Shown here: one piece after another, positions 11,352-46,435 of the stretch
Layout: each line of letters starts with the position of its first letter
How positions within the stretch are numbered: position 1 is the stretch's first letter
DNA from: Mytilus trossulus
Lineage: Eukaryota
Direction of reading: 5' to 3'
Length of the DNA: 64,000 bases
Assembly (NCBI RefSeq): GCF_036588685.1
Contig: NC_086379.1
Coordinates: 52,452,001-52,516,000 of the forward strand
The notes under the pieces: generated by a model
Seen by the model: only the letters and a program-made list of their open reading frames with translations
Database searches by the model: none
Told to the model about the DNA's origin: nothing
Position numbers and translations under genes: made by a program

Positions 11352-14300
11352 ATGACTAAAAGGAGAGCGAAAGAACAGAAAGTGCCAGAAGAACCAGAAG
11401 AAAGGTAAGCACTTTTAATTTGTTGCCTCTAATGCTCTATTTCAGGCATACACAAAGTTGCAATTCAGTTATTACATACATATATGTCATATCGACTCGA
11501 TAAATCATAACAGAGGATGGAGTGATTTTCAATGGTTGGTTGTTGCTGACAGAGAGAATGTACCAAGGATGCAATTTAAAGCATAATCAATTTAAAAAAA
11601 AAGACAACACAACGGCAAAGAACGAAAACGAAAAAGGACAGACGACACTATTTTAACATTACACAGAAAACCAAAGATTGGACAAGACGAACCCAACCAA
11701 AAAACGTACGGTGAACTCGTGTGCTGGCCTGGCAAGCAGTTTCTGTTCCACGTGTGGCATCCATCATGTTGCTCATTCATCAATATATAACTGATGATAA
11801 AATGTTAGGAGAAAAAAAATTATATTTAATCTATATTTATCCTCCTTATCCATTTCGTGATCAATTTGTTAAATGCACACGTCGAATAGTGTATGCAGCG
11901 TATCATTGGTGACTATGGTCATTTCATTCGGACAGATAAAATCAAACGTTGCTTGTGCAATAGATTAGTAGAAATGCAGACCTCATTATGATTTCAAATA
12001 CTAGAAGCAAATTTAAGTAATCCATACATTTTTGTATGTCAAACGCTCTGAAAACTGCACAAAGCCTGCATGGCGTCATGGCTCTATCAGGCTAATGAAG
12101 GAAGTACAAGTAGTTGAAAATGCGCCTACAAACTCAAATTAGTCGGAATTCATTTGTAAACTTAAAATCAGTGTTCACTGATGATATACACATGCTGCTA
12201 AAAACTCATTTTCAGATGCAAATCATTTAAATCAATATGTATTTTCAACGAAAACCAAAACTACAGATTCCGACTGCAGTAGATTTAAAAAGTTACTCAG
12301 AGCTTATATTGTTCGAAAATTATGCACGTAGACTTCAAGTTAGAATAAACTTTTGACTTGACTTTGATTTTTAACAGCTCGAGTATGCAGATATATTTTT
12401 AATTTCAATATTCAAAGAAAGGAATTCATAAGGGACGACATCAAAAGATCGATGTAGGATAAAAAAAAAAACTTAAATCAAATAGTTTGGGGGTGGGGGT
12501 CAACATTGCTGGAAGTTTTGTTAATCTAAAATCGATTTTACATATATCCCTATTGGTCAATCAATTTTTCACAAATTAAGTTAAGAGGGGGGGGGGGGGG
12601 GGGGGGGGGGGGTCAGTGAAAAAACTGTGAATTAAGTTTTTTATCCTTCATTGAACTTTTGATGTTGTCCCTTAGTGATTTCAGTGCTTTCTTTGGATAG
12701 TTAAATTAAAAACCAATAAGGTCAAGTGGACACATTCTAATCGTGTATTGCAATTATAATTATTCACATGTGCAACTATATAGACCAACTATATACAACA
12801 ACAAGTTAAAAACAATTTTTATTTATAAGAGCACCCTTTTACTTTTTTATAGATACTTCCTGAATCCAGAGTCAGTCAGTTCTCACTTATTTTGTTCTAT
12901 ATGTCAGGATGTTTTCAACCAGCCATACAGAGCTCCATGTGGTCATAGTTTCTGCAAAGCAGTAAGTGATGGAAAGATACATTCAATAGTTAAAATAATA
13001 CTCTGAATGTCCAATGGTTTCAGACCGGTCTATATCGTTCGCCTGGTTGCATGAGTTTACCAAAAGCAACTATTTAGTAGTACTTTTAGATTGATGAGGT
13101 TGAGCAGTCCTCTAACGGGTCACCCTGGGGCAATATTTTTCTTTTATATTTGTATTCTCCTTTTTTAGTGAGCTTTTCTCATCACTTGGCGTCCGTCGTT
13201 TGTCGTCGTCCGTCGTCGTCCTGCGTTAACTTTTACAAAAATCTTCTCCTCTGAAACTACTTGGCCAAATTTCACCAAACTTGGCCACAATCATCATTGG
13301 GGTATCTAGTTTGAAATGAGTCCGGTGACCTGGTCAACCAACCAAGATGGCTGCCATGGCTAAAAATAGAACATAGGGATAAAACTGCCGATTTTTGCAT
13401 ACAACTCAAAAACCAAAGCATTTAGAGCAAATCTGACAGGAGGTAAAATTGTTTCTCAGGTCAAGATCTATTTGCCCTGAAATTTTTAGATGAATCCGAC
13501 AACCTTTTGTTTGGTTGCTGCCCCTGAATAAGTAATTTAAGGAAATTTTGCCGTTTTTGGTTATATCTTGAATAATATTATTATAGATAAAGATAAACTG
13601 TAAGCAGCAATAATGTTAAGCAAAGTAAGATTTACAAATAAGTCAATATGATCGAAATGGTCAGGTGACCCCCTAAGGAGTTATTGCCTTTTATAGTCAA
13701 TTTTTAACCATTTTTGTAAATCTTAGTTATCTTTTACAAAAATCTTCTCCTCTGCAAATACTGGGCCAAATTAATTTAAACTTGGCCACAATCATCTTTG
13801 GGTTATCTAGTTTAAAAAATGTGTCCGATGACCCGGCCATCCAACCAAGCTGGCCACCACAGCTAAAAATAGAACATAGGGGTAAAATGCAGTTTTTTGC
13901 TAATAACTCAAAAATCAAAGCATTTAGAGCAAATCGGATGGAGGTTTAACTCTTTATCAGGTCAAGATCTATCTGCCCTGAAATTTTCAGATGAATCGGA
14001 CAACCTTTTGTTGGGTTGCTGCCCCTGAATTTGGTAATTTAAAGGAAATATTGCCGTTTTTGGTATTATCTTGAATATTATTATAGATAAAGATAAACTG
14101 TAAACAGCAAAAATGTTCAGCAAAGTAAGATTTACAAATAAGCCAAATTGACCGAAATGGTCAATTGACCCCCTAGGGAGTTATTGCCCCTTATAGTCAA
14201 TTTTTAACAATTTACATAAAATTTGTTAATTTTTACTAACATTTTCAACTGAAACAACTGGGCCAAGTTCATTATAGGTAGAGATAATTGTAAGCAGCAA

Positions 14301-15976
14301 GAATGTTCAGTATGAACAAACACATCACCATCACCAAAACACAATTTTGTCATGAATCCATCTGCTTCCTCTGTTTAATATTCACATAGACCAAGGTGAG
14401 CGACACAGGCTCTTTAGAGCCTCTAGTTTCATTTTGCTTAATTTGCTATTTATTAATTCTTATTTACTGTTTGCTGATTTCAGTGTATCACGGCATGGTT
14501 ACGGAACAGCAAGACTTGTCCAGAGGACAGGTAAGTCAGTTTATTCAGCAGCCATATTAGTACTGTAAAATGGCTTCCTGTAGATTTCTAACTTTTGGTT
14601 TTGTTTTTTTAAATAAATTAAGAAATTGCTATTTTTTTTACATTATGATCATTGATCGATTGTTGTTTACTGTTCGTTGAATGGCAAATATTGCATGGAT
14701 GTCTCTTTCGGATTCGGTATGCACCTGAAATTACAAAATAATTGTCATTACAACTTATTGTGTTTTTTTCTGTTTTAGAAAGAGCTTACAGTTACACCAA
14801 ATGCACCATGACTTTATTGTTGAAAATATTATAGGCGATCAAATGGTGAGTTAATGTCGTATAATTTTTTTTTGTCTGCTTGTTTTATGCACTGTTGATT
14901 AAAATGTTTATATATGGATAAATGTTATATGGATAAATAACAGCAAATGTTGAAAAAAAAAACATTGAGGCAGGACCAACCTACGTCATAGATTTAGACA
15001 CCTAGAGGACATCACATGGAGTCTGAAACCACGGTCAATTTCCTTACTATTAAGTAGTTTCAAATATATAACAAGATATTTGATATGATTATCAATTTGA
15101 CAAGAGACAACTTTCTTTCAGACCAATAAGACACGAGTTTTGTCTTGTGATGTGATAAAGTCACCGATATGAACTCAAATCAACAACCCAAAATAAATAG
15201 AAAACCATAAACTAGATTGTTGCTATGTTTATAAGGAGGTATAAGGGAGTTCCATTGAACACTTATTCATGATGATATTTGGTACATCTGAAAACGCTAG
15301 CTACTTTCTTATTTCAGGTTGCATGTCCATTTAGAAAATCAGGCTGTGATTTCATTGGGCAGTTGCAAATGTTAAAATCTCACAAGAAATCCTGTGAATT
15401 TAATCCAATTAACCTACCTGAATTTCTGAAAATGAAAGAAAAAGAAAATACTCCAGGTGAGTCTTATATTTTCAACTGAAAGTACTTATTAATATTTTCT
15501 TGTAAGTGGCAATGTTATGACAGTGATTTTAAAAATATCAGATATTATACCTCCAATTTTTTCACTGAAGTTAAAGTCCACTGGTTAACTTACATGGGGC
15601 AAACTTTTACACCTATCCATAAGCAATGTTGATTTCTTGAATTATTAAAATAAGGAACACTTCAAAATGAATTGTACAAGAAATTAGTCTTGTATGTGTT
15701 TTGTGAAATTAATATCTGTTATCAACAGATTTTATGATTGGTTTCTATAGACATTCACCTATAACAATTATAGGTGTAAAGGATATATTATAACAATTAA
15801 GATTTAGAAAATTAATTGCTATGTATCTTTTTTCAGATTCACATGTTACAGATGACGAAGTCCTGTCATCTCCAGCAAAGCCGTCCTTAATGATGAGACT
15901 GTTTCGTTCTGGTGACAGTCAGAAATCTTTGTTGAAAACTATGTTTGAAGACAAAGAAAATACGCCTTCAACTTGA
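11352..15976 (+). CDS. RING (C3HC3D) plus TRAF-type zinc-finger protein, RNF151/TRAF-N-terminus-like putative E3 ligase, 184 aa (complete copy)
   Basis: Coding exons 11352-11404, 12853-12961, 14484-14530, 14779-14845, 15318-15456, 15837-15976. All introns GT-AG with consistent phases, 555 nt total. Protein MTKRRAKEQKVPEEPEERYFLNPESVSSHLFCSICQDVFNQPYRAPCGHSFCKACITAWLRNSKTCPEDRKSL...VACPFRKSGCDFIGQLQMLKSHKKSCEFNP...DKENTPST*. ATTAAA at ~16016. Confidence 0.9.
12429..12674. mobile_element. MITE with ~40-bp TIRs and a central poly-G tract (intron 1 of RING gene)
   Basis: TAAGGGACGACATCAAAAGATCGATGTAGGATAAAAAA matches the reverse complement of the right end, TAAGGGACAACATCAAAAGTTCAATGAAGGATAAAAAA. 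TA at both ends; G26 run at 12587-12612. Only its right half recurs at 23798 and 35032. Confidence 0.8.
13162..14428 (+). mobile_element. Non-autonomous Helentron/DINE-1-like element (HINE) with internal ~501-bp tandem repeat; repeated at +11235 and +22469
   Basis: T-rich start, (GTC)n microsatellite, core repeated at 13231 and 13732, subterminal GGTGAGCGA, 3' hairpin AGGCTCT-TT-AGAGCCT, then CTAGTTT. Confidence 0.75.
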
Positions 15977-16897
15977 TATAAATCTTCGTATTTTGCTATT
16001 TATTTTCTCATGTTTATTAAATAATATACTTATTTGCAATTTATTTTCTTATAGCCCTTTATTTAACCCAATAATTTTGTCATCATGAAAGTATCAGAAT
16101 GCGAAACATAAAGATCTGTGTTTTTTCTTGTTGTTGACGATTTTACGGTTGACTATAATTGCTTACAGATCTACTTCATTTGAATTTAGGGCCGTGGATA
16201 GTTGTCTTTTTTGCAATCATACCACATCTCCTTATTTTGATATAGGTCGGAATTTCTTCTTGTGAACTTTTAGGACGCCAACAAAACCTTGTCGTCTTGT
16301 GCACAGAATGGTTCATTTTTTTTTGTACAATAATCAGGCCGTATGTTTCCTCGTTGGATTCTTTTTTATCTATCATTTTGGATCTTTTTAAAGCTCGATA
16401 TGAGCTATTGATTTTGCTCATTGTTGAAGGTCGTATGGTGACACAGAGTTGCTAATTTTTACGTATTTTTTTCTTTCTCTGGGGGATATTTGTGTAATTG
16501 GCAATCATATCATATCTTCTTACTTTTATATTCATACCCATGTCAGATAGACGTTATCTTCCTGATTTCTTACATCCACCAACCATGGTATCAAAAGTCT
16601 GGCGTACTCAATTATAATCCTGGTACCTTTGATAACTAATTAGCTGATACGGTGATTTGATGAACAAAACCAAATTGAATGGTTTCTGATTTTTCTTTAA
16701 AGAATATTATACTTTATAGAGCAAACTATTTATAGGAAGATGCACAATGAACTCACACTTTGATTTAAATTAAAAAAAATCTAACAAGCAAACAAAAATG
16801 GATAACAGAATGGACGATTTAGTACCCTGAAATATCTATAAAAACATATATACATTTATCTGAGAGCATTACACGTGCAATAAAACTCTGAAGCTCT

Positions 16898-17171
16898 GGA
16901 TTTGATTTTTGATTTTTTTCATGTTTTAACGGATATTTTAGGCAATGCATTTGGGCTGTTTCGTGGCGGCCAGTTTTTATTGTTGGAGGAAGCCCGAGTG
17001 TCCGTAGAAAACCACCGACTTTCGGTAGGAAAACTAACCATCCTAGTCAATTAAGATTTGGAGTCAAGTGTACCCACCGCACCCGCACGAGGGGGGTTCG
17101 AACTCACAACCTCTGCTGACTGGCTTGTGATTCCAGAAGTAACGTCCTAAACCACTCGGCCACCGAGGCCC
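16898..17171 (-). mobile_element. tRNA-derived SINE (also at +11234 and +22468; decayed relative at ~59755-60022)
   Basis: Minus strand starts GGGCCTCGGTGGCCGAGTGG (A box), contains GAGTTCGAACC (B box) and ends in an AAATC-like tail. Confidence 0.75.
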
Positions 17172-18144
17172 TCTAAAGCTATGGATCCCGCTAGTGTCTC
17201 TATATAAATAAAGTTACAAATCTCATTCGTTTAAAATAATAAAAATCACAAAAACACAGAACTCAGAAAGAACTTTGTAACGGAGTCTCTAATCGAATTA
17301 CAAAATCAAAATCAAAATCTCAAATACATCAAACGAATGGACAACAACTGTCATATTCCTGACTTTGTACAGGCATCGTCTTATGCAGAAAATGGTAGAT
17401 TAATAAAAATGGAAAATGGAAATTAATGGGTAATGTGTCATAGAGACAAACAACCCGACCAAAGAGCAGAACATTGCCGTGGTCCAACAATGGGTTTTCA
17501 ACACATCAAGAAAATCCCACACCAAAAGGCACGTCCCAGCCGCCTCAAGTCTGGTTTTATAGCTAGCTGAACCTCTCTCATGCTTAGACATGCTCTATGG
17601 CTCACAAATTATTGATTATTATTTTTTGTAAAAAAGATAACAGCGATTCGACAGGTGATTAAAACATATATTACAACTCCAAAGCCGTTCATCCCATAAT
17701 GATATAAAGAAGGTTTGTGGTAAAATATAGTCTATATATGATCGCACACTTACAGGCAATCTAAAAAAAACCATGAAAGCATGCAGTTGAAAGTTTCACA
17801 TCTGCGTTTAAGAAAATAGTGTGATTTGGTTGTATCAAGAAAGTATATAACAAAAAGTTGGGACACAAACAACTCCTCCAAATTATTTTTGCTACCTGTC
17901 TGTACGAGATCACCCATCATACAATAATATTGTTGATTCGCACGGGGATAACAATATCATTTAAAGATCTAACATTTTATGTCATGTCACAGAAAACTTT
18001 CGAGGTCTTACACCTTATAATTTTATCATATTCTAATGCCTTATTTGATGAAAATACCACGATCCGTAATACAGATAAGGTGTAACTGATAAGACAGAAC
18101 AGTATTGTAGTAGCCCAATTATTCAGTATTGTTGATACCCCAAG

Positions 18145-21100
18145 ATGATTGTACTCATAGTAACTCTAGCTCTAGTAGTAGGAACTCAAGCACAAATATG
18201 CTGTGTTCCTGCACAGTGGGAAGGAACGGAGGGAACGATTATTGCAGTTTCTCAAAATGATACAGCAGATCCGATGATAGTTACGGTAGGTCAAGTCAAA
18301 TAAGGATGAAGAAATAGAACGCCGAGGTCGTATTTATTGACCCCAAAAAATTCTTTCTCAGAACATCTTGAAGAATATCAGAACCTAATATAGAAATAAA
18401 TTTTTTAACTGTATTGGCAATTTGCTGGACTGGAATATCGATTTAAGAATCTCTACCGCCAGATATATTTCAGACAATACACGTATCATATTAAGGATGT
18501 CTTTAATTTTTCTAAGACCTCAGGATTTCCTAAATTATCTGAATCTAGGTAGGAGACATGAACATCGGTGTATTATGTACATGCTTGTTTATCATGTATC
18601 TTACAATGTAACATTCGCTTGAACCATTGAAGAGGTCTTGAACATCAATATTTTATTTCCAAACTCCTAGTAGATAGATATCTTAATTTCAACTTCACAT
18701 TGTCAATAAATATAATGCGACTTCTTAAAAGCGAACTGTGGAGGTTCTTTAAGAAACTTAAATAAAAGATTTTTGTCTATTTTTGGAGGTTATATAATAT
18801 TGACGATTTCAGATATAACTATGAACTCATTTAATTGTTTTGTTTTTATTTGCAGGGTGCTATAAGTGTTGCGTATGATGCCACCAACAAACGTATCGCT
18901 GCAATGTTGTACATGAGTACAGGAGGATATAACGGAAATGTTGGTGTCATTTTGAATTATGCACAGGCAAGTACATATTTGAGTTTGTTCAGCATTTCAT
19001 GTGTATTTTAGTCTAGACGTTGTATAATGAACTGTCGATGTGACCTCATATTGAACCGACAGTCATAAAACCAAACATAGATAGAACTAGAAAGCGACTA
19101 CGTGCAATTGGATATTTCTAGGTCTGTTTAATTTTTGTTCAGCCTGCAACTTTGGTAGCAAAAGCCAGACATAGCGATCCTACAATTCCCTCGTCAGCGG
19201 TGGCGGCGTCCACTAATCTTCACTCTGTGATTTCCGTTTTTGAAATTTTAAATACTACCTTTAACTGTCCGGGATTTCTAATAAACTTGGACAGAACTAT
19301 GCTTATCAATTGTATACCTTTTAAAATACGATACTTATAGACTGTAACCGTGAAGATTTAAATTTGAAATGTGATTGTCTATCAAATGATAAAATCTCTC
19401 TTCGTTATTTCAGGGCATTCAATACACAGTTAGTGGCAATAACTGCACTAGAACACCTCTTGGAGCATTTGTTCCTAACTGTATTCCAAGTAAGTAACCT
19501 CTTTATTAGTTTACTAAACTCGACAATTTTTTAAGCCAATATGTGTTTTTCTCTAGTATTTTCGGTATTCAATCTCTCTGTAGGTGTTAAACGATTGGAA
19601 TTATTATCCAATGTCTCCTTTCATTCATAAAGATATATAATAAAAGAACATATTTCTTTAAAAAAAAATTACTTCTCTTGGGTTTTTGTTTTAGCTGGGT
19701 GGCGGGTCCATTGTCCTATACTACAAACTGTCCTGATTGTTGTATTGGATGAACTATTCACACACTTGGTGATTAGTCAAACCAAATATAAAGCAATCTT
19801 CTTAGGATGCTAATGTGGGACTGGTGGTTGCTTTCTAAATGCCCAGTGGCAAATATTTCAAACAAGTTTGTAAGGACAACAATTTACATTTGATGTACAT
19901 GTATTAAGTATGTGCAAGAGCTACAGTTTTTCAATTAATGGGTGTTATCTAAATTATAAAGCTATTTATCATTTAATGTAGGCTGCATATGTATGAACAC
20001 ATTTTAATTCAAACTTAAAATTAAAATCATGTATGTAAAACACATATTATATCTCCCTTCTACGTTTTAACCTTTAGGTGATGCTAAATTGCAGAGATCA
20101 AGCTATATGGGACCTCCCAGTAACAAGATGATGATAAATTCATACACCTACATGAGAGGACCATTAGAAGTTGGTGTAACAGTAACAGCTAATACATGTG
20201 TACCAGTGGGAGAGTTGATCAATGGTCAAACTCCAAATGGTACATTTTTTTTTAATTTATTGTGTGTATGTTATCTTATCTGAAATTATTATCATAGAAG
20301 AAAAACAATAATCATTGTTAAAATATAAGATGTGATGTCCTCAGTGAATCAGCTGCCCACTTAAGACCACGTGAACAGGTAGGGGTTCATCTAAATCCCC
20401 CATATTGGAAAATAAGCAAACATAAGCATTTTTACATAACTTTTTAAATGATTGAAAACAAAACTAAAATTCAAGATAGATTTGAATGAGCATAGAACAA
20501 TAAACAAAACACTTTTTATTTTAACTCGATTCACAAATAAATACTTCTCTGTTGTTCTTAAAGACTCCTGTAAATTGATTCCAAGTGTGCATAACTTCTT
20601 TTTTATTCCGAATTGCTGCAAATAAAAAGAATCTTCCTTCCTGGCAACAATTATTACCATAACATACTGCATAATCTTATTGTTTCATTTTTAGAATTTG
20701 TTATACAGAGTGTTGGTTTCAGTAACATTACTCCAGGAATAAGCAAGGCTGATTCATTTACTCCACCCAGCAGCTGTTTAAACAGTCCTTTGGTCCAAGC
20801 TGTAAGTAGCTAGTATCACAACATTCATTTTGTAACCTAGGCCAATGAGGGCAGGAAACAGGGGCATTAAAAGCTTTGCATGCATGAGAGAAAGTAAGGC
20901 AGATACCTAAGAATTCTTTGAGGGCCATTGTTTGCCTTATATAATAAAAGCGTTAAAGATTATCAATCAAAGAGGATAAATTTACACTTCTACCCAATAT
21001 ATCATAAATAAAAGTGGAAAGATTATTTTTGGAAAACTTGAACAAAAGAAATTGATCCAGTCAGTCAGTGTTAGTCAACATTACAGAGTACAGACATACA

Positions 21101-21389
21101 TGTATTTGAAATTCTTGTCTTGCTGAATTCTTCTATTAGAAAAGTTAACAGTAAAAGGTATGGTTTACTTTTTAAATTGTTACTTGGATGGAGAGTTGTC
21201 TCATTGGCACTCACACCACATCTTCCTATATCTATTCAGAATTTAAATTTAATTTCACAACTGTATCTATAATTCAGCAGTTTCTGTTTGAGATTGATTA
21301 CAATTGCAATAAATTTCTTTTCTTGTTTTCAGAACTTGATTCCAATGCAAGGCAGACTTTTGAGAAGATACTTAGATTTATTGCCATAG
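18145..21389 (+). CDS. EPDR: Ependymin-related protein (secreted/lysosomal), 217 aa, copy 1
   Basis: Exons 18145-18285, 18856-18966, 19414-19489, 20078-20239, 20695-20801, 21333-21389 (654 nt, phases consistent, intron 2 GC-AG). Signal peptide MIVLIVTLALVVGTQA followed by ependymin-family motifs CCVPAQWEG, YDATNKRI, NC.R..L, CIP, CVPV, FSNITPGI and FTPPSSC. AATAAA at 21422. Confidence 0.9.
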
Positions 21390-21542
21390 GCAAATTTCAT
21401 ATGATGCCCATTGTGCACTTCAATAAACAGGATAAAATACTTGTCATGCATCTTTGAACATATTGTAATTTTTCAAAATAAACTTATTTTTTGTGTGAAT
21501 TTTGAAAGATTCCCATTTATTTGGTAGCTCTAAAACAGGAAT

Positions 21543-21862
21543 TACAAGAATGTGTCCTTAGTACACGGATGCATATCACTTTCTATGTTCAATGGACTGT
21601 AATATTCTGGTAAAAACTAAAATTTGCATTAGATTAGAAGGATCATAATATTCTGGTAAAAACTAAAATTTGCATTAGATTAGAAAGATCATATCATAGT
21701 GAACATGCATTTCAGGTTGATTGGACCAAAACCTCAGCAAAACTTTCTTGACCAAAAACTTTAACCTGAAGCATGAAAGAAAAACAAAGAGATGGACCAA
21801 CAGAATAACAAACAGACACACAGACCGAAAAAAACATAATGCCCTTTAGTAGGGCATAAAAA
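21543..21862 (-). mobile_element. Short HINE-like element (same family as 46137-46435), repeated in each unit
   Basis: ACAAGAATGTGTCC..GTACACGGATGC at one end and the hairpin ATGCCCT..AGGGCAT followed by AAAAA at the other. Contains a (CAGA)n-like tract and a short internal direct duplication. Confidence 0.6.
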
Positions 21863-24087
21863 TCCTGAACATAGAAAGGAAACGCATCTGCATCTTTATC
21901 ACTGTAGATATATTGGGGACAATGCTATGCAACTTTGCATATAAAATAGGGAAGATATGGTATTATTGCCAATGAGACAACTATCCACAAAAGACCAAAT
22001 GACATATAAATTAATAAATATAGGTAATTGTAGGGCCTTCATCACAACAATGAGCAAAACCTGTACTGCATAGTAAGCTATACATGGCCTCCAAATGACC
22101 AATGTAAAACTATTCAAAAAGTAAAACTAACAGCCTATTCAGTAACAAACAATCACTGAATTACAGGCTCCTTACATAGGAAAGGTGCATACAGAGCGTG
22201 GCGGGGTTAAAACTATTTTGAAGGTGTCAACCTTCCCTCTAATCTTGGTTGGAAAAGCTTAATTTTTCACATATGAGAAAATTAACAACAGGAAGTCCTT
22301 TTTATCATTTAATGATGACAACACTATTTAATCTAATGTTTGTACACAATTTTAACAGTGCAACATTTTGATTCTATAACAAATAAAGCACATTAAGCAA
22401 AAAGCATATTTTTGATTTCAAGTAAACATTCTTGGCAGTAATAATACTTTACATGTAAAGTTTTAACTAATCTCATTTTCAATTTACCAGCAAACTACAT
22501 TATGATAAGAGAAACATTATAATGAATAAGTCAATGCCTGCATAATAGTTACGAAATTAATAATGACATTTGTAAAAGAAAAAAAAATCATTCATTCACC
22601 CTTGATTTTATAACAATAACACATATTCAGCAAAATTAAAGTATATTTTTGACAATAAATTATAATCTAAACCCTAGTATGACCTATTAAATAAATTTAG
22701 ATTTTTCAAATAACTTTAGTCTAGTTTTGACATGAAAATATCAGCCATGCAAACTTTTAGCCTTAACAGTTTGCTAAAAGCTGAAAATTAAAACAGAATA
22801 TATGAATTATTGACAGATCTGTAAAAGTGAACACATTCCTGTTGGCCCCATATCAAAAACTAACAAATGAAAAATAACTCGTTTTTATTCTTCAAAATTA
22901 TCCACAAATAAGTGATCTCCTGAAATTAATTATGTTTTGCAATACATATAAAGACAAAATAAAAAGCTACTATGCATTAAAACATGGATGATATATGCAA
23001 AAACAGAATAATAATAAATGAATAAAAAATAAACACAACCTAATTGAGCTGCCTTTTGAATCTTTCAAAATAAATGTACTGGAACTGTACTACAGCCATT
23101 TGACCTGCTATACAAATGTTTAATTGCACTGTAAAAAAACCCAAATAAACAGAGTATCTGAGATTCTCCTAAAATAATATTGTAATGCAAGTTATCATTT
23201 AAATATTACAACTTATAAACCACCAATAAAATCAATTATCTATTGCTTATCTTACAAAATCATATTTATATTATGATATTTACAAATCTTATGATTAATC
23301 ATTTCCCTAAATTAAGAGATTCCATATTTCTAGAATATTGATAAAATTTCTATGACACCTTTGGCTCGACTAAATTAACCAGGGAAGACACAATCAAGAA
23401 TACATTTTGTCATTTTATTTCAAGAAATGCAGCATTTGAATGGTTATTGAAGAAAAAAAGAAAGAAAAAATTAAATTAAATTTCCAATATCTCTGGAATA
23501 AATCTTTGGATACTGTTTTTTATTCTATTTTTTTCTGATTTGAGTGTAAAAATACAGCAAAGCTGTACTGTGGAAAGTATCACAGTGATAACATTTTGAA
23601 GTTAACAGAAAAAGTTCACCTGTTGATTACAAAGCAAACTGAACTAATAATAACGATAACATACATCTAAAACAAGATTGTGTCCCAAGTACACGGATGC
23701 CTCACTTGCACTATCATTTTTTATGTTCAGTGGACTGTGAAATTGGGGTAAAAACTCTAATTGTGCATTAATTTTGATGCAAAATTAGAAAGATCATATT
23801 TTTCACAAATTAAGTTAAGAGGGGGGGGGGGGGGGGGGGGGGGGGGGTCAGTGAAAAAACTGTGAATTAAGTTTTTTATCCTTCATTGAACTTTTGATGT
23901 TGTCCCTTAGTGATTTCAGTGCTTTCTTTGGATAGTTAAATTAAAAACCAATAAGGTCAAGTGGACACATTCTAATCGTGTATTGCAATTATAATTATTC
24001 ACATGTGCAACTATATAGACCAACTATATACAACAACAAGTTAAAAACAATTTTTATTTATAAGAGCACCCTTTTACTTTTTTATAG

Positions 24088-35321: not shown

Positions 35322-38300
35322 ATACTTCCTGAATCCAGAGTCAGTCAGTTCTCACTTATTTTGTTCTATATGTCAGGATGTTTTCAACCAGCCATACAGA
35401 GCTCCATGTGGTCATAGTTTCTGCAAAGCAGTAAGTGATGGAAAGATACATTCAATAGTTAAAATAATACTCTGAATGTCCAATGGTTTCAGACCGGTCT
35501 ATATCGTTCGCCTGGTTGCATGAGTTTACCAAAAGCAACTATTTAGTAGTACTTTTAGATTGATGAGGTTGAGCAGTCCTCTAACGGGTCACCCTGGGGC
35601 AATATTTTTCTTTTATATTTGTATTCTCCTTTTTTAGTGAGCTTTTCTCATCACTTGGCGTCCGTCGTTTGTCGTCGTCCGTCGTCGTCCTGCGTTAACT
35701 TTTACAAAAATCTTCTCCTCTGAAACTACTTGGCCAAATTTCACCAAACTTGGCCACAATCATCATTGGGGTATCTAGTTTGAAATGAGTCCGGTGACCT
35801 GGTCAACCAACCAAGATGGCTGCCATGGCTAAAAATAGAACATAGGGATAAAACTGCCGATTTTTGCATACAACTCAAAAACCAAAGCATTTAGAGCAAA
35901 TCTGACAGGAGGTAAAATTGTTTCTCAGGTCAAGATCTATTTGCCCTGAAATTTTTAGATGAATCCGACAACCTTTTGTTTGGTTGCTGCCCCTGAATAA
36001 GTAATTTAAGGAAATTTTGCCGTTTTTGGTTATATCTTGAATAATATTATTATAGATAAAGATAAACTGTAAGCAGCAATAATGTTAAGCAAAGTAAGAT
36101 TTACAAATAAGTCAATATGATCGAAATGGTCAGGTGACCCCCTAAGGAGTTATTGCCTTTTATAGTCAATTTTTAACCATTTTTGTAAATCTTAGTTATC
36201 TTTTACAAAAATCTTCTCCTCTGCAAATACTGGGCCAAATTAATTTAAACTTGGCCACAATCATCTTTGGGTTATCTAGTTTAAAAAATGTGTCCGATGA
36301 CCCGGCCATCCAACCAAGCTGGCCACCACAGCTAAAAATAGAACATATGGGTAAAATGCAGTTTTTTGCTAATAACTCAAAAATCAAAGCATTTAGAGCA
36401 AATCGGATGGAGGTTTAACTCTTTATCAGGTCAAGATCTATCTGCCCTGAAATTTTCAGATGAATCGGACAACCTTTTGTTGGGTTGCTGCCCCTGAATT
36501 TGGTAATTTAAAGGAAATATTGCCGTTTTTGGTATTATCTTGAATATTATTATAGATAAAGATAAACTGTAAACAGCAAAAATGTTCAGCAAAGTAAGAT
36601 TTACAAATAAGCCAAATTGACCGAAATGGTCAATTGACCCCCTAGGGAGTTATTGCCCCTTATAGTCAATTTTTAACAATTTACATAAAATTTGTTAATT
36701 TTTACTAACATTTTCAACTGAAACAACTGGGCCAAGTTCATTATAGGTAGAGATAATTGTAAGCAGCAAGAATGTTCAGTATGAACAAACACATCACCAT
36801 CACCAAAACACAATTTTGTCATGAATCCATCTGCTTCCTCTGTTTAATATTCACATAGACCAAGGTGAGCGACACAGGCTCTTTAGAGCCTCTAGTTTCA
36901 TTTTGCTTAATTTGCTATTTATTAATTCTTATTTACTGTTTGCTGATTTCAGTGTATCACGGCATGGTTACGGAACAGCAAGACTTGTCCAGAGGACAGG
37001 TAAGTCAGTTTATTCAGCAGCCATATTAGTACTGTAAAATGGCTTCCTGTAGATTTCTAACTTTTGGTTTTGTTTTTTTAAATAAATTAAGAAATTGCTA
37101 TTTTTTTTACATTATGATCATTGATCGATTGTTGTTTACTGTTCGTTGAATGGCAAATATTGCATGGATGTCTCTTTCGGATTCGGTATGCACCTGAAAT
37201 TACAAAATAATTGTCATTACAACTTATTGTGTTTTTTTCTGTTTTAGAAAGAGCTTACAGTTACACCAAATGCACCATGACTTTATTGTTGAAAATATTA
37301 TAGGCGATCAAATGGTGAGTTAATGTCGTATAATTTTTTTTTGTCTGCTTGTTTTATGCACTGTTGATTAAAATGTTTATATATGGATAAATGTTATATG
37401 GATAAATAACAGCAAATGTTGAAAAAAAAACATTGAGGCAGGACCAACCTACGTCATAGATTTAGACACCTAGAGGACATCACATGGAGTCTGAAACCAC
37501 GGTCAATTTCCTTACTATTAAGTAGTTTCAAATATATAACAAGATATTTGATATGATTATCAATTTGACAAGAGACAACTTTCTTTCAGACCAATAAGAC
37601 ACGAGTTTTGTCTTGTGATGTGATAAAGTCACCGATATGAACTCAAATCAACAACCCAAAATAAATAGAAAACCATAAACTAGATTGTTGCTATGTTTAT
37701 AAGGAGGTATAAGGGAGTTCCATTGAACACTTATTCATGATGATATTTGGTACATCTGAAAACGCTAGCTACTTTCTTATTTCAGGTTGCATGTCCATTT
37801 AGAAAATCAGGCTGTGATTTCATTGGGCAGTTGCAAATGTTAAAATCTCACAAGAAATCCTGTGAATTTAATCCAATTAACCTACCTGAATTTCTGAAAA
37901 TGAAAGAAAAAGAAAATACTCCAGGTGAGTCTTATATTTTCAACTGAAAGTACTTATTAATATTTTCTTGTAAGTGGCAATGTTATGACAGTGATTTTAA
38001 AAATATCAGATATTATACCTCCAATTTTTTCACTGAAGTTAAAGTCCACTGGTTAACTTACATGGGGCAAACTTTTACACCTATCCATAAGCAATGTTGA
38101 TTTCTTGAATTATTAAAATAAGGAACACTTCAAAATGAATTGTACAAGAAATTAGTCTTGTATGTGTTTTGTGAAATTAATATCTGTTATCAACAGATTT
38201 TATGATTGGTTTCTATAGACATTCACCTATAACAATTATAGGTGTAAAGGATATATTATAACAATTAAGATTTAGAAAATTAATTGCTATGTATCTTTTT

Positions 38301-38444
38301 TCAGATTCACATGTTACAGATGACGAAGTCCTGTCATCTCCAGCAAAGCCGTCCTTAATGATGAGACTGTTTCGTTCTGGTGACAGTCAGAAATCTTTGT
38401 TGAAAACTATGTTTGAAGACAAAGAAAATACGCCTTCAACTTGA
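35322..38444 (+). pseudogene. 5'-truncated duplicate of RING gene (exons 2-6), copy 3
   Basis: Exons 35322-35430, 36953-36999, 37248-37314, 37786-37924, 38305-38444. Exon 1 is absent upstream. Confidence 0.85.
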
Positions 38445-40612
38445 TATAAATCTTCGTATTTTGCTATTTATTTTCTCATGTTTATTAAATAATATACTTA
38501 TTTGCAATTTATTTTCTTATAGCCCTTTATTTAACCCAATAATTTTGTCATCATGAAAGTATCAGAATGCGAAACATAAAGATCTGTGTTTTTTCTTGTT
38601 GTTGACGATTTTACGGTTGACTATAATTGCTTACAGATCTACTTCATTTGAATTTAGGGCCGTGGATAGTTGTCTTTTTTGCAATCATACCACATCTCCT
38701 TATTTTGATATAGGTCGGAATTTCTTCTTGTGAACTTTTAGGACGCCAACAAAACCTTGTCGTCTTGTGCACAGAATGGTTCATTTTTTTTTGTACAATA
38801 ATCAGGCCGTATGTTTCCTCGTTGGATTCTTTTTTATCTATCATTTTGGATCTTTTTAAAGCTCGATATGAGCTATTGATTTTGCTCATTGTTGAAGGTC
38901 GTATGGTGACACAGAGTTGCTAATTTTTACGTATTTTTTTCTTTCTCTGGGGGATATTTGTGTAATTGGCAATCATATCATATCTTCTTACTTTTATATT
39001 CATACCCATGTCAGATAGACGTTATCTTCCTGATTTCTTACATCCACCAACCATGGTATCAAAAGTCTGGCGTACTCAATTATAATCCTGGTACCTTTGA
39101 TAACTAATTAGCTGATACGGTGATTTGATGAACAAAACCAAATTGAATGGTTTCTGATTTTTCTTTAAAGAATATTATACTTTATAGAGCAAACTATTTA
39201 TAGGAAGATGCACAATGAACTCACACTTTGATTTAAATTAAAAAAAATCTAACAAGCAAACAAAAATGGATAACAGAATGGACGATTTAGTACCCTGAAA
39301 TATCTATAAAAACATATATACATTTATCTGAGAGCATTACACGTGCAATAAAACTCTGAAGCTCTGGATTTGATTTTTGATTTTTTTCATGTTTTAACGG
39401 ATATTTTAGGCAATGCATTTGGGCTGTTTCGTGGCGGCCAGTTTTTATTGTTGGAGGAAGCCCGAGTGTCCGTAGAAAACCACCGACTTTCGGTAGGAAA
39501 ACTAACCATCCTAGTCAATTAAGATTTGGAGTCAAGTGTACCCACCGCACCCGCACGAGGGGGGTTCGAACTCACAACCTCTGCTGACTGGCTTGTGATT
39601 CCAGAAGTAACGTCCTAAACCACTCGGCCACCGAGGCCCTCTAAAGCTATGGATCCCGCTAGTGTCTCTATATAAATAAAGTTACAAATCTCATTCGTTT
39701 AAAATAATAAAAATCACAAAAACACAGAACTCAGAAAGAACTTTGTAACGGAGTCTCTAATCGAATTACAAAATCAAAATCAAAATCTCAAATACATCAA
39801 ACGAATGGACAACAACTGTCATATTCCTGACTTTGTACAGGCATCGTCTTATGCAGAAAATGGTAGATTAATAAAAATGGAAAATGGAAATTAATGGGTA
39901 ATGTGTCATAGAGACAAACAACCCGACCAAAGAGCAGAACATTGCCGTGGTCCAACAATGGGTTTTCAACACATCAAGAAAATCCCACACCAAAAGGCAC
40001 GTCCCAGCCGCCTCAAGTCTGGTTTTATAGCTAGCTGAACCTCTCTCATGCTTAGACATGCTCTATGGCTCACAAATTATTGATTATTATTTTTTGTAAA
40101 AAAGATAACAGCGATTCGACAGGTGATTAAAACATATATTACAACTCCAAAGCCGTTCATCCCATAATGATATAAAGAAGGTTTGTGGTAAAATATAGTC
40201 TATATATGATCGCACACTTACAGGCAATCTAAAAAAAACCATGAAAGCATGCAGTTGAAAGTTTCACATCTGCGTTTAAGAAAATAGTGTGATTTGGTTG
40301 TATCAAGAAAGTATATAACAAAAAGTTGGGACACAAACAACTCCTCCAAATTATTTTTGCTACCTGTCTGTACGAGATCACCCATCATACAATAATATTG
40401 TTGATTCGCACGGGGATAACAATATCATTTAAAGATCTAACATTTTATGTCATGTCACAGAAAACTTTCGAGGTCTTACACCTTATAATTTTATCATATT
40501 CTAATGCCTTATTTGATGAAAATACCACGATCCGTAATACAGATAAGGTGTAACTGATAAGACAGAACAGTATTGTAGTAGCCCAATTATTCAGTATTGT
40601 TGATACCCCAAG

Positions 40613-43600
40613 ATGATTGTACTCATAGTAACTCTAGCTCTAGTAGTAGGAACTCAAGCACAAATATGCTGTGTTCCTGCACAGTGGGAAGGAACGGAGG
40701 GAACGATTATTGCAGTTTCTCAAAATGATACAGCAGATCCGATGATAGTTACGGTAGGTCAAGTCAAATAAGGATGAAGAAATAGAACGCCGAGGTCGTA
40801 TTTATTGACCCCAAAAAATTCTTTCTCAGAACATCTTGAAGAATATCAGAACCTAATATAGAAATAAATTTTTTAACTGTATTGGCAATTTGCTGGACTG
40901 GAATATCGATTTAAGAATCTCTACCGCCAGATATATTTCAGACAATACACGTATCATATTAAGGATGTCTTTAATTTTTCTAAGACCTCAGGATTTCCTA
41001 AATTATCTGAATCTAGGTAGGAGACATGAACATCGGTGTATTATGTACATGCTTGTTTATCATGTATCTTACAATGTAACATTCGCTTGAACCATTGAAG
41101 AGGTCTTGAACATCAATATTTTATTTCCAAACTCCTAGTAGATAGATATCTTAATTTCAACTTCACATTGTCAATAAATATAATGCGACTTCTTAAAAGC
41201 GAACTGTGGAGGTTCTTTAAGAAACTTAAATAAAAGATTTTTGTCTATTTTTGGAGGTTATATAATATTGACGATTTCAGATATAACTATGAACTCATTT
41301 AATTGTTTTGTTTTTATTTGCAGGGTGCTATAAGTGTTGCGTATGATGCCACCAACAAACGTATCGCTGCAATGTTGTACATGAGTACAGGAGGATATAA
41401 CGGAAATGTTGGTGTCATTTTGAATTATGCACAGGCAAGTACATATTTGAGTTTGTTCAGCATTTCATGTGTATTTTAGTCTAGACGTTGTATAATGAAC
41501 TGTCGATGTGACCTCATATTGAACCGACAGTCATAAAACCAAACATAGATAGAACTAGAAAGCGACTACGTGCAATTGGATATTTCTAGGTCTGTTTAAT
41601 TTTTGTTCAGCCTGCAACTTTGGTAGCAAAAGCCAGACATAGCGATCCTACAATTCCCTCGTCAGCGGTGGCGGCGTCCACTAATCTTCACTCTGTGATT
41701 TCCGTTTTTGAAATTTTAAATACTACCTTTAACTGTCCGGGATTTCTAATAAACTTGGACAGAACTATGCTTATCAATTGTATACCTTTTAAAATACGAT
41801 ACTTATAGACTGTAACCGTGAAGATTTAAATTTGAAATGTGATTGTCTATCAAATGATAAAATCTCTCTTCGTTATTTCAGGGCATTCAATACACAGTTA
41901 GTGGCAATAACTGCACTAGAACACCTCTTGGAGCATTTGTTCCTAACTGTATTCCAAGTAAGTAACCTCTTTATTAGTTTACTAAACTCGACAATTTTTT
42001 AAGCCAATATGTGTTTTTCTCTAGTATTTTCGGTATTCAATCTCTCTGTAGGTGTTAAACGATTGGAATTATTATCCAATGTCTCCTTTCATTCATAAAG
42101 ATATATAATAAAAGAACATATTTCTTTAAAAAAAAATTACTTCTCTTGGGTTTTTGTTTTAGCTGGGTGGCGGGTCCATTGTCCTATACTACAAACTGTC
42201 CTGATTGTTGTATTGGATGAACTATTCACACACTTGGTGATTAGTCAAACCAAATATAAAGCAATCTTCTTAGGATGCTAATGTGGGACTGGTGGTTGCT
42301 TTCTAAATGCCCAGTGGCAAATATTTCAAACAAGTTTGTAAGGACAACAATTTACATTTGATGTACATGTATTAAGTATGTGCAAGAGCTACAGTTTTTC
42401 AATTAATGGGTGTTATCTAAATTATAAAGCTATTTATCATTTAATGTAGGCTGCATATGTATGAACACATTTTAATTCAAACTTAAAATTAAAATCATGT
42501 ATGTAAAACACATATTATATCTCCCTTCTACGTTTTAACCTTTAGGTGATGCTAAATTGCAGAGATCAAGCTATATGGGACCTCCCAGTAACAAGATGAT
42601 GATAAATTCATACACCTACATGAGAGGACCATTAGAAGTTGGTGTAACAGTAACAGCTAATACATGTGTACCAGTGGGAGAGTTGATCAATGGTCAAACT
42701 CCAAATGGTACATTTTTTTTAATTTATTGTGTGTATGTTATCTTATCTGAAATTATTATCATAGAAGAAAAACAATAATCATTGTTAAAATATAAGATGT
42801 GATGTCCTCAGTGAATCAGCTGCCCACTTAAGACCACGTGAACAGGTAGGGGTTCATCTAAATCCCCCATATTGGAAAATAAGCAAACATAAGCATTTTT
42901 ACATAACTTTTTAAATTATTGAAAACAAAACTAAAATTCAAGATAGATTTGAATGAGCATAGAACAATAAACAAAACACTTTTTATTTTAACTCGATTCA
43001 CAAATAAATACTTCTCTGTTGTTCTTAAAGACTCCTGTAAATTGATTCCAAGTGTGCATAACTTCTTTTTTATTCCGAATTGCTGCAAATAAAAAGAATC
43101 TTCCTTCCTGGCAACAATTATTACCATAACATACTGCATAATCTTATTGTTTCATTTTTAGAATTTGTTATACAGAGTGTTGGTTTCAGTAACATTACTC
43201 CAGGAATAAGCAAGGCTGATTCATTTACTCCACCCAGCAGCTGTTTAAACAGTCCTTTGGTCCAAGCTGTAAGTAGCTAGTATCACAACATTCATTTTGT
43301 AACCTAGGCCAATGAGGGCAGGAAACAGGGGCATTAAAAGCTTTGCATGCATGAGAGAAAGTAAGGCAGATACCTAAGAATTCTTTGAGGGCCATTGTTT
43401 GCCTTATATAATAAAAGCGTTAAAGATTATCAATCAAAGAGGATAAATTTACACTTCTACCCAATATATCATAAATAAAAGTGGAAAGATTATTTTTGGA
43501 AAACTTGAACAAAAGAAATTGATCCAGTCAGTCAGTGTTAGTCAACATTACAGAGTACAGACATACATGTATTTGAAATTCTTGTCTTGCTGAATTCTTC

Positions 43601-43856
43601 TATTAGAAAAGTTAACAGTAAAAGGTATGGTTTACTTTTTAAATTGTTACTTGGATGGAGAGTTGTCTCATTGGCACTCACACCACATCTTCCTATATCT
43701 ATTCAGAATTTAAATTTAATTTCACAACTGTATCTATAATTCAGCAGTTTCTGTTTGAGATTGATTACAATTGCAATAAATTTCTTTTCTTGTTTTCAGA
43801 ACTTGATTCCAATGCAAGGCAGACTTTTGAGAAGATACTTAGATTTATTGCCATAG
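40613..43856 (+). CDS. EPDR: Ependymin-related protein, copy 3 (complete)
   Basis: Exons 40613-40753, 41324-41434, 41882-41957, 42546-42707, 43162-43268, 43800-43856. Differences seen only in intron 4 and downstream. Confidence 0.85.
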
Positions 43857-46136
43857 GCAAATTTCATATGATGCCCATTGTGCACTTCAATAAACAGGAT
43901 AAAATACTTGTCATGCATCTTTGAACATATTGTAATTTTTCAAAATAAACTTATTTTTTGTGTGAATTTTGAAAGATTCCCATTTATTTGGTAGCTCTAA
44001 AACAGGAATTACAAGAATGTGTCCTTAGTACACGGATGCATATCACTTTCTATGTTCAATGGACTGTAATATTCTGGTAAAAACTAAAATTTGCATTAGA
44101 TTAGAAGGATCATAATATTCTGGTAAAAACTAAAATTTGCATTAGATTAGAAAGATCATATCATAGTGAACATGCATTTCAGGTTGATTGGACCAAAACC
44201 TCAGCAAAACTTTCTTGACCAAAAACTTTAACCTGAAGCATGAAAGAAAAACAAAGAGATGGACCAACAGAATAACAAACAGACACACAGACCGAAAAAA
44301 ACATAATGCCCTTTAGTAGGGCATAAAAATCCTGAACATAGAAAGGAAACGCATCTGCATCTTTATCACTGTAGATATATTGGGGACAATGCTATGCAAC
44401 TTTGCATATAAAATAGGGAAGATATGGTATTATTGCCAATGAGACAACTATCCACAAAAGACCAAATGACATATAAATTAATAAATATAGGTAATTGTAG
44501 GGCCTTCATCACAACAATGAGCAAAACCTGTACTGCATAGTAAGCTATACATGGCCTCCAAATGACCAATGTAAAACTATTCAAAAAGTAAAACTAACAG
44601 CCTATTCAGTAACAAACAATCACTGAATTACAGGCTCCTTACATAGGAAAGGTGCATACAGAGTGTGGCGGGGTTAAAACTATTTTGAAGGTGTCAACCT
44701 TCCCTCTAATCTTGGTTGGAAAAGCTTAATTTTTCACATATGAGAAAATTAACAACAGGAAGTCCTTTTTATCATTTAATGATGACAACACTATTTAATC
44801 TAATGTTTGTACACAATTTTAACAGTGCAACATTTTGATTCTATAACAAATAAAGCACATTAAGCAAAAAGCATATTTTTGATTTCAAGTAAACATTCTT
44901 GGCAGTAATAATACTTTACATGTAAAGTTTTAACTAATCTCATTTTCAATTTACCAGCAAACTACATTATGATAAGAGAAACATTATAATGAATAAGTCA
45001 ATGCCTGCATAATAGTTACGAAATTAATAATGACATTTGTAAAAGAAAAAAAAATCATTCATTCACCCTTGATTTTATAACAATAACACATATTCAGCAA
45101 AATTAAAGTATATTTTTGACAATAAATTATAATCTAAACCCTAGTATGACCTATTAAATAAATTTAGATTTTTCAAATAACTTTAGTCTAGTTTTGACAT
45201 GAAAATATCAGCCATGCAAACTTTTAGCCTTAACAGTTTGCTAAAAGCTGAAAATTAAAACAGAATATATGAATTATTGACAGATCTGTAAAAGTGAACA
45301 CATTCCTGTTGGCCCCATATCAAAAACTAACAAATGAAAAATAACTCGTTTTTATTCTTCAAAATTATCCACAAATAAGTGATCTCCTGAAATTAATTAT
45401 GTTTTGCAATACATATAAAGACAAAATAAAAAGCTACTATGCATTAAAACATGGATGATATATGCAAAAACAGAATAATAATAAATGAATAAAAAATAAA
45501 CACAACCTAATTGAGCTGCCTTTTGAATCTTTCAAAATAAATGTACTGGAACTGTACTACAGCCATTTGACCTGCTATACAAATGTTTAATTGCACTGTA
45601 AAAAAACCCAAATAAACAGAGTATCTGAGATTCTCCTAAAATAATATTGTAATGCAAGTTATCATTTAAATATTACAACTTATAAACCACCAATAAAATC
45701 AATTATCTATTGCTTATCTTACAAAATCATATTTATATTATGATATTTACAAATCTTATGATTAATCATTTCCCTAAATTAAGAGATTCCATATTTCTAG
45801 AATATTGATAAAATTTCTATGACACCTTTGGCTCGACTAAATTAACCAGGGAAGACACAATCAAGAATACATTTTGTCATTTTATTTCAAGAAATGCAGC
45901 ATTTGAATGGTTATTGAAGAAAAAAAGAAAGAAAAAATTAAATTAAATTTCCAATATCTCTGGAATAAATCTTTGGATACTGTTTTTTATTCTATTTTTT
46001 TCTGATTTGAGTGTAAAAATACAGCAAAGCTGTACTGTGGAAAGTATCACAGTGATAACATTTTGAAGTTAACAGAAAAAGTTCACCTGTTGATTACAAA
46101 GCAAACTGAACTAATAATAACGATAACATACATCTA

Positions 46137-46435
46137 AAACAAGATTGTGTCCCAAGTACACGGATGCCTCACTTGCACTATCATTTTTTATGTTCAGTGG
46201 ACTGTGAAATTGGGGTAAAAACTCTAATTGTGCATTAATTTTGATGCAAAATTAGAAAGATCATATCATAGGAAACATGTGTACTAAATTTCAAGTTGAT
46301 TGAACTTCAACTTCATCAAAAACTACCTTGACCATGAACTTTAATCTAAAGCGGGACGAAAGAAAGGACAGACGAACAGACCCACAGACCAGAAAACATA
46401 ATGCCCCTTTACTATCGTAGGTGGGGCATAAAAAA
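46137..46435 (-). mobile_element. HINE-like element containing the right breakpoint of the tandem array
   Basis: AAACAAGATTGTGTCCCAAGTACACGGATGCC ... ATGCCCC(TTTACTATCGTAGGT)GGGGCATAAAAA hairpin end. It is complete here but truncated after AGATCATAT at 23799 and 35033. Confidence 0.65.

What the first reader, a model, noticed from the sequence alone, without database searches (positions are those of the whole stretch)
12564..46266. Very young 11.2-kb tandem triplication spanning two genes
Seen: three head-to-tail units with identical junctions and only six differences noticed by eye (G-run 26/27/27; G13879 vs T,T; A-run 10/9/9; T-run 9/9/8; G,G vs T42917; C,C vs T44664). Inference: a very recent copy-number gain, probably polymorphic. 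The junction sequence is novel and not found at either array edge, which supports at least one real duplication.
Basis: seen in the sequence. Interest (0 to 1): 0.7.

Follow-up and report, generated by a model that had tools for sequence, protein, structure and literature searches.

The report
Young mussel duplication, likely over-assembled
An 11-kb stretch of a mussel genome holding one whole ependymin-like gene is written three times in a row; the join between copies is present in public sequence data, but depth suggests the animal likely has two copies and the middle one was likely added during assembly, so this is likely an ordinary young duplication.

Summary
Observation confirmed: three head-to-tail 11.23-kb units, two identical junctions and exactly the six differences listed. 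Its left part equals unit 3 and its right part equals unit 1: the mark of a two-copy array slipped by one period, by unequal crossover or by the assembler.

One public DNA run (X1, possibly the window's source) holds an error-free contig across the junction, so at least one duplication is real. Its contig depths fit two copies on one haplotype better than three, though contig depth is a rough proxy.

The unit holds one complete ependymin-related gene, a RING-finger gene cut off from its first exon, and likely a neighbour's 3' tail. All six differences are non-coding. The junction has 2-bp microhomology.

Verdict: a real, young tandem duplication; third copy about 60% assembly loop, 30% real. 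A known kind of event. The scan noted other tandem duplications in this genome but not this one.

The parts
12564..23797 (+). Unit 1 (copy a): G26, G13879, A10, T9, G20450, C22197
23798..35031 (+). Unit 2 (mosaic): left three markers as unit 3, right three as unit 1; no private variant; switch lies in unit positions 2392-7682; likely an assembly loop, otherwise a crossover product
35032..46266 (+). Unit 3 (copy b), ending 46264 plus the 2-bp microhomology
23798..23799 (.). Junction 1: 2-bp microhomology (AT), no inserted bases; crossed by an 83-bp contig of run X1
35032..35033 (.). Junction 2, identical to junction 1
12396..12712 (.). Dispersed repeat element with inverted arms (12429-12466 / 12637-12674, 89%; 12396-12421 / 12687-12712, 88%); the left breakpoint lies in its loop, 23 bases before a G26 run (12587-12612); three other genomic copies read have only 6 G at that place
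46139..46414 (.). Second, different dispersed repeat element containing the right breakpoint
11352..15976 (+). RING-finger (RNF151-like) gene, complete copy, 6 exons, 184 aa; exon 1 (11352-11404) lies outside the unit
   Evidence: equals P0018
24088..27210 (+). RING gene exons 2-6, orphan copy without promoter and start exon
35322..38444 (+). RING gene exons 2-6, second orphan copy
18145..21389 (+). Ependymin-related (EPDR) gene, coding exons complete, 6 exons, 217 aa, copy 1
   Evidence: equals P0001
29379..32623 (+). EPDR gene copy 2, identical protein
40613..43856 (+). EPDR gene copy 3, identical protein
44763..46205 (-). Likely distal 3' UTR of the minus-strand SUN-domain gene (stop 47538-47540); same sequence at 22296-23738 and in unit 2. 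Strand and gene are inferred
   Evidence: X6 record 30, a guessed RNA run; two minus-strand ATTAAA 12 and 31 bases from the contig end; PF07738

Best explanation
An 11.2-kb segment carrying one whole ependymin-related gene and the exon-1-less body of a RING-finger gene is tandemly repeated, likely as two real copies on one haplotype made by one microhomology-joined duplication, with the middle unit likely added when the assembly went once more round the repeat. Step 1 (junction shown; pathway inferred): a break or stalled fork in a hairpin-forming, G-run-bearing repeat at 12564 was joined to a point 11.2 kb downstream through 2 bp of microhomology, as in polymerase-theta or template-switch tandem duplications. 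Step 2 (shown): the copies then came to differ at 3 substitutions and 3 run lengths, all non-coding. Step 3 (pattern shown; cause inferred): a join inside the 5.3-kb stretch where the copies are identical gave the order a-left a-right / b-left a-right / b-left b-right. Predicted effect: one extra ependymin gene dose; the orphan RING exons would be silent.
For: Junction: X1 contig 23745-23826, 0 differences, depth 37.2. Copies are not alleles: 0.027% apart against 1.2% for flank contigs. In X1 the 6 of 6 listed long contigs inside the unit have 0 substitutions, while 2 of 2 listed in the flank have 11 and 19, as expected if the window's haplotype outnumbers the other only inside the unit. Depth: flank 37.5, unit 59.1 (AT-rich end 45.9); at 22491 window allele 42.5 against other allele 21.6, ratio 1.97. 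One value near 21-24 per copy fits all nine figures tested for two copies; three copies would need 61 or more in the unit and 51 or more on the junction contig (observed 45-63 and 37). Best-fit chi-square 0.0 for two copies, 4.6-10.6 for three. A pattern with no middle-unit variant and ordered blocks occurs in 7 of 729 arrangements if three copies were equally old.
Against: The tool warns that contig depth is no copy number, and only the longest contigs were listed (8 records for X1). The fit uses loose bounds and error sizes I assumed; with 20% error three copies cost only chi-square 4.6, and one copy costs about 5, so depth alone is weak. The junction contig lies beside a 27-G run, which could lower its depth; its ratio to the nearest unit contig (37.2/44.9 = 0.83) taken alone fits three copies. 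It has 29 laid bases right of the junction, under the tool's 31-base rule for bridging, because the stretch I laid ended there. X1 may be another animal than the assembled one. None of the three substitution sites was among the 40 of 553 rows shown, so copies a and b were not seen apart in reads. Neither outer edge was shown bridged. Two bases of microhomology or more arise by chance about 1 time in 5 at this base composition (hand arithmetic from 32.3% GC). The assembly method is unknown to me.
Confidence: 0.6

Rival explanations
1. True triplication. The two-copy allele misaligned with itself and one unequal crossover in the 5.3-kb identical stretch made a three-copy allele, so recently that the middle unit has no mutation of its own. 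X1 is then a two-copy relative, or its depths mislead.
For: The mosaic middle unit and identical junctions are what such a crossover gives. No gap in the array. A comparable duplication in maize rearranges to single copies at 1.27 x 10^-3 on average and gave three-copy alleles in 5 of 104 stocks (PMC6904753, abstract and section 7). Accurate reads longer than 6.6 kb could in principle phase the middle unit.
Against: X1 depth ratio at 22491 is 1.97, the unit/flank ratio is 1.58, and the junction contig has depth 37; three copies predict 3 or more, at least about 1.6-2.0, and 51 or more. X1 matches the window with 0 substitutions over 5.7 kb of listed unit contigs, so it may be the source animal.
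Confidence: 0.3
2. Mixed cells or a circle. The animal carries two copies in most cells, and a minority of cells with three copies, or an excised 11.2-kb circle, supplied the reads that made the middle unit.
For: A circle or a somatic crossover gives the same junction and the same marker order (inference). The unit/flank ratio does not exclude a small excess over two copies.
Against: Junction depth is near one full copy per haplotype (37.2 = 1.49 x 25 under two copies), more than a rare circle would give. No direct sign of a minority class was seen, though contigs drop rare variants.
Confidence: 0.06
3. Wholly an artefact: a single-copy locus written three times, or both haplotypes placed in tandem.
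For: The copies are almost identical, and depth alone fits one copy with chi-square about 5. False duplications are common in heterozygous genomes (PMC9516828, passages).
Against: The junction is in X1's contigs at depth 37. The copies are about 45 times closer than the flank haplotypes, so they are not uncollapsed alleles. No gap lies between them.
Confidence: 0.03

Closest known systems
Maize q-gamma-27 locus: Sab duplication and its Rabb triplication (PMC6904753; abstract and section 7 read)
   Same: A tandem duplication of a gene-bearing segment that can rearrange to one or three copies; the three-copy allele shows a 1:2 ratio of copy markers, as the assembled array does at each of its six markers.
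   Different: In maize three copies were shown by qPCR, clone ratios and protein level. Here the only depth data favour two copies, and no phenotype is known.
Microhomology-joined tandem duplications of polymerase-theta type (TONSL loss in C. elegans and Arabidopsis, PMC13031629, passages seen; about 11-kb class of BRCA1-deficient tumours, 10.1101/240648, search listing only)
   Same: One head-to-tail junction, a few bases of microhomology (mean 2.7 bp in the plant data of that paper), no long homology at the edges, size near 11 kb.
   Different: Those arise in repair mutants or tumours; this is one natural allele. That paper reports no enrichment at particular sequence elements, so the hairpin and G-run here may be incidental. 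The pathway cannot be tested from one junction.
Homotype false duplication in genome assemblies (PMC9516828, passages seen)
   Same: An extra assembled copy with no haplotype-specific words of its own and less depth per assembled copy than the haploid level.
   Different: No gap, and depth is not 'very low': it sits on a real duplication, so the shortfall is about one third. The heterotype class (uncollapsed alleles) does not fit.
Segregating tandem duplications in Drosophila yakuba (PMC5460883, abstract read)
   Same: Young tandem duplications that capture whole genes and gene fragments.
   Different: That study finds little expression change from whole-gene duplication and more from chimeras; no expression from the duplicated haplotype was measured here.
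Ependymin-related proteins, cysteine profile 2 (PMC6280359, passages seen)
   Same: Pfam PF00811, hydrophobic N-terminus, six cysteines with an adjacent pair, 217 aa; lineage-specific duplications are frequent in molluscs.
   Different: The copies here encode an identical protein, so there is no divergence yet.

Membership tests
Tandem duplication with microhomology junction | Head-to-tail copies with one new junction absent from both edges | tested here: met
Tandem duplication with microhomology junction | Junction present in sequencing data | tested here: met
   83-bp contig, 0 differences, depth 37.2, in 1 of 4 runs laid; 29 laid bases on the right side, under the tool's 31-base rule; the run may be the window's source
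Tandem duplication with microhomology junction | Short microhomology, no long homology at the edges | tested here: met
   exact identity stops at 12563 and 46267, leaving a 2-bp overlap
Polymerase-theta / template-switch tandem duplication | Microhomology above chance, or templated insertion | tested here: inconclusive
   2 bp, no insertion; chance about 0.19 by hand arithmetic
Polymerase-theta / template-switch tandem duplication | Genetic dependence on the pathway | not testable with these tools
   needs mutants
Triplication by unequal crossover of a duplication (Rabb type) | Middle copy recombinant, junctions identical | tested here: met
Triplication by unequal crossover of a duplication (Rabb type) | Three-copy dosage | tested here: not met
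   ratio 1.97 at 22491; rough proxy, in a run whose relation to the assembled animal is not on record
Triplication by unequal crossover of a duplication (Rabb type) | Single molecules carrying the recombinant markers | not testable with these tools
   all 24 runs listed are kept as contigs
Heterotype false duplication | Copies differ at haplotype level | tested here: not met
   0.027% against 1.2%
Heterotype false duplication | Gap between the copies | tested here: not met
   no N in the window
Homotype false duplication (middle unit only) | No copy-specific words in the extra copy | tested here: met
   no private variant in unit 2
Homotype false duplication (middle unit only) | Depth per assembled copy below the haploid level | tested here: inconclusive
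   about two thirds of the one-copy level; proxy only
Ependymin-related protein (profile 2) | Pfam PF00811 above cut-off | tested here: met
   50.5 bits against 32.3; P0001 equals all three window copies
Ependymin-related protein (profile 2) | Six conserved cysteines with an adjacent pair; length near 213 aa | tested here: met
   Cys 19, 20, 95, 107, 150, 191; 217 aa; matched by count and spacing to the passages, not aligned to that paper's set
Ependymin-related protein (profile 2) | Signal peptide | tested here: inconclusive
   hydrophobic N-terminus by eye; no predictor run
RNF151-like RING E3 ligase | C3HC4 RING followed by a Sina/TRAF-type zinc finger | tested here: met
   RING 37.7 bits over cut-off 25.2; Sina_ZnF E 0.0024, under its cut-off; database name RNF151-like

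The most novel reading that the evidence does not exclude
A live one/two/three-copy allele series segregates in mussels, and the junction gives the orphaned RING exons a new first exon from the end of the preceding unit (22315-22337 spliced across the junction to 23956, the 218-aa database model P0010). That would be a new RING ligase isoform plus tripled ependymin dose, caught within a few generations of birth.
Probability: 0.04. Interest if true: 0.5.

Novelty: new member of a known kind. Interest (0 to 1): 0.2.

Why it matters
Biologically modest: one more young tandem duplication in a genus known for structural variation. It could serve as a natural test of gene dosage for a secreted ependymin-like protein and of how fast an 11-kb duplicate slips to one or three copies. 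In practice it is a caution. The database lists three accessions for the ependymin protein and two for a RING model whose start is borrowed across the junction, so gene counts may include one false unit and two patched pseudogene models. The marker order (a a / b a / b b) is a cheap flag for 'one-period slip, check reads' in any assembly.

Tried and rejected
Raw reads: none available; all 24 runs listed are contigs, and no RNA holder was listed, which is no evidence on expression. 19 of the 24 runs were small shares; I laid 6 of 24 in all (X1-X6), so 18 were never laid. Joints table: the back-joint 23797 to 12564 was not among the 15 of 3,381 rows shown, and the G-run was skipped as a repeat, so one search was aimed at the junction in line. 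Allele ratios at 13879, 20450, 22197: not among the rows shown. One unit contig has 1 gap letter, probably the A-run, which does not separate two from three copies. The one loose end at 23799 in X1 and X4 does not match the window's right edge and is probably another copy of the element. No junction contig in X2, X4, X5: shallow, other organism label, contigs show presence only. Uncollapsed haplotypes: rejected. Repeat-mediated crossover for the first duplication: rejected, the two edges lie in different repeat families with 2 bp shared. G-run or hairpin as cause: kept only as a possibility, one junction, no genome-wide control. In-frame EPDR-to-RING chimera: EPDR exons end in phase 0 or 1 while RING exon 2 starts in phase 2, so splicing to the first RING acceptor shifts frame. 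Absolute age: not given, no mutation rate was looked up; gene conversion or error-prone copying could bias it. The human CMT1A triplication paper (recalled) is not held. Searches on mollusc ependymins (12 of 15 listed) and Mytilus copy-number terms (12 of 211 listed) showed no title on this locus; that is not a full search. No paper supplements were opened; none is expected to bear on the claims.
Full report
1. Observation. Self-comparison of the window gives a 22,476-column match at 99.97% identity offset by about 11,234 bases. The units are 12564-23797, 23798-35031 and 35032-46264. Exact identity stops at 12563 on the left and 46267 on the right, leaving a 2-base overlap (AT) and no inserted bases at the junction. 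There is no N in the window. In the own genome (G000, 1.30 Gb) the junction stretch is full-length only at the two junctions, and a unique part of the unit only at the three units.

2. What the six differences say. At the first three (unit positions 24, 1317, 2391) unit 1 is the odd one; at the last three (7683, 7888, 9635) unit 3 is. Unit 2 has no variant of its own. The array reads a-left a-right / b-left a-right / b-left b-right. If three copies were equally old, 7 of 729 arrangements would look like this. So there are two sequence types, and the middle unit is a join between them inside a 5,291-bp identical stretch (6,570 bp between the nearest substitutions). An unequal crossover between two-copy chromatids gives this order; so does an assembly path that goes once more round the repeat (inference). 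Sequence alone cannot separate them.

3. Contents. A RING-finger gene of 184 aa starts at 11352. Its exon 1 lies outside the unit, so units 2 and 3 carry only exons 2-6, identical to the original. The full protein equals P0018, named RNF151-like in the database; exon 2 scores above the Pfam RING cut-off. An ependymin-related gene (18145-21389, 217 aa) lies wholly inside, and all three copies encode P0001, Pfam PF00811 50.5 bits against cut-off 32.3, with six cysteines matching profile 2 of PMC6280359 (passages seen). The database labels P0001 Mytilus trossulus; orthologues at 94-97% are in three other Mytilus species, each with one RefSeq accession against three for P0001. A contig of run X6 (guessed RNA) holds ependymin exons 4 and 6 without the introns; another covers 22296-23738. 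Two minus-strand ATTAAA lie 12 and 31 bases from its end, so it is likely the 3' tail of the SUN-domain gene to the right (PF07738; stop at 47538). Strand is inferred, and nearer signals at 47127 and 47294 could end that message earlier. All six differences are intronic or intergenic.

4. Breakpoints. The left one lies in the loop of a dispersed element with inverted arms, 23 bases before a G26 run. Two of three other genomic copies read share the left-edge context, showing that the edge is the intact state and the junction the derived one; all three have only 6 G at that place. The right breakpoint lies in a different high-copy element. Short microhomology without long homology resembles polymerase-theta-type tandem duplications (PMC13031629, passages seen), and 11 kb is a modal size in BRCA1-deficient tumours (10.1101/240648, search listing). 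But 2 bases or more arise by chance about 19% of the time (hand arithmetic), so the pathway is inferred only.

5. Is the junction real? Of 24 runs listed, one (X1) holds 87% of the sampled words; it may be the window's source and is not independent support. Laid on 23742-23826, X1 has one 83-bp contig over 23745-23826 with no difference at depth 37.2. Only 29 laid bases fall right of the junction, under the tool's 31-base rule, because my stretch ended there; every 31-mer in those 82 laid bases is nonetheless in the run. X2, X4 and X5 list no such contig (0 of 3; shallow, other organism label, contigs cannot show absence). Neither outer edge was shown bridged.

6. Two copies or three? The tool warns that contig depth is no copy number, so this is a proxy. 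In one search the two listed flank contigs of X1 carry 11 and 19 substitutions (other haplotype or mosaic) at depth 36.7 and 37.8. The six listed unit contigs carry none, at 60.7, 55.1, 63.0, 61.4, 47.3 and 44.9. At 22491 the other allele, also seen in X2 and X6, has depth 21.6 and the window's 42.5 (ratio 1.97). Since at least 15% of the words in the longer flank contig are haplotype-specific, one copy is worth at least 20.5. Two copies then predict 41-61 in the unit and 31-41 on the junction contig; three predict 61-82 and 51-61. A one-parameter fit with loose bounds gives chi-square 0.0 for two copies, 4.6-10.6 for three and about 5 for one (one is excluded by the junction). Against this reading: error sizes are my assumptions; low depth in AT-rich DNA or beside the G-run could rescue three; the junction/nearest-contig ratio 0.83 alone fits three; the diagnostic sites were not among the 40 of 553 rows shown; and X1 may be a two-copy relative. 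X2 and X3 show no rise (unit/flank 0.92 and 1.01).

7. Age. Copies a and b differ at 3 of 11,234 sites (2.7e-4; 95% range 0.6-7.8e-4), about 45 times less than the 1.2% between the window and X1's flank contigs. The duplication is therefore much younger than the alleles at this locus, unless conversion has homogenised the copies.

8. Mechanism and effect. Shown: one junction, two sequence types, mosaic middle unit, gene content. Inferred: a microhomology-joined duplication on one haplotype, then a one-period slip, in silico (about 0.6) or by crossover (about 0.3). Predicted effect: extra ependymin dose, though whole-gene duplicates often show little expression change (PMC5460883, abstract read), and silent RING fragments. 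The database has a 218-aa model (P0010, two accessions) whose first exon maps to 22315-22337 and is spliced across the junction into RING intron 1. Its donor is weak, its acceptor lacks a pyrimidine tract, and I saw no RNA for it; it is most likely an annotation patch, and it is the basis of the novel case.

9. Comparison. It works like the maize Sab-to-Rabb series (PMC6904753, abstract and section 7 read) but fails the dosage test for a triplication in the only data at hand. It is not a heterotype false duplication; the middle unit resembles a homotype one (PMC9516828, passages seen). Earlier notes of this scan list other tandem duplications in this genome but none like this one (8 of 274 shown; 1; 0 nearby). 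Verdict: new member of a known kind; interest 0.2.

Noticed in passing
window 49243-49614 (- strand): Four 93-bp head-to-tail copies of the 3' end of a SUN-domain exon with its splice donor. The unit is 31 codons and reads through in frame; copies alternate (1=3; 2 and 4 share a variant), as from a doubled dimer. It fits the 'mirage' exon-boundary repeats of amphioxus (PMC3087553, abstract read). Use of the later donors was not tested.
   Followed up: partly
proteins P0003 and P0009; window 11352-14845 with 18856-21389: Database models labelled Mytilus edulis join RING exons 1-4 in frame to ependymin exons 2-6: read-through between the two neighbours, or an annotation merge. Both splice sites are phase 0.
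   Followed up: partly
window 22315-22337 and 23956-24196 (also one period later): Database model P0010 borrows a start exon across the junction for the two orphan RING copies; likely an annotation patch.
   Followed up: yes
window 3807-7450 (- strand): Older 1.3-kb tandem repeat (4164-5498 / 5450-6739, 82%) and a 340-bp piece in three copies, beside a broken retroelement-like reading frame with a CCHC zinc-knuckle motif near 7170-7220 (motif recognised from memory).
   Followed up: no
window 12587-12612: The G26 run is a local expansion: three other genomic copies of the element have 6 G, an interruption, then a few more. It predates the duplication, since all units carry it.
   Followed up: partly
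window 13225-14273: Two 550-bp copies (84%) of a very high-copy element in RING intron 2.
   Followed up: no
window 56339-56696 and 61670-62020: Inverted pair of a 358-bp element at 95% identity, 5 kb apart.
   Followed up: no
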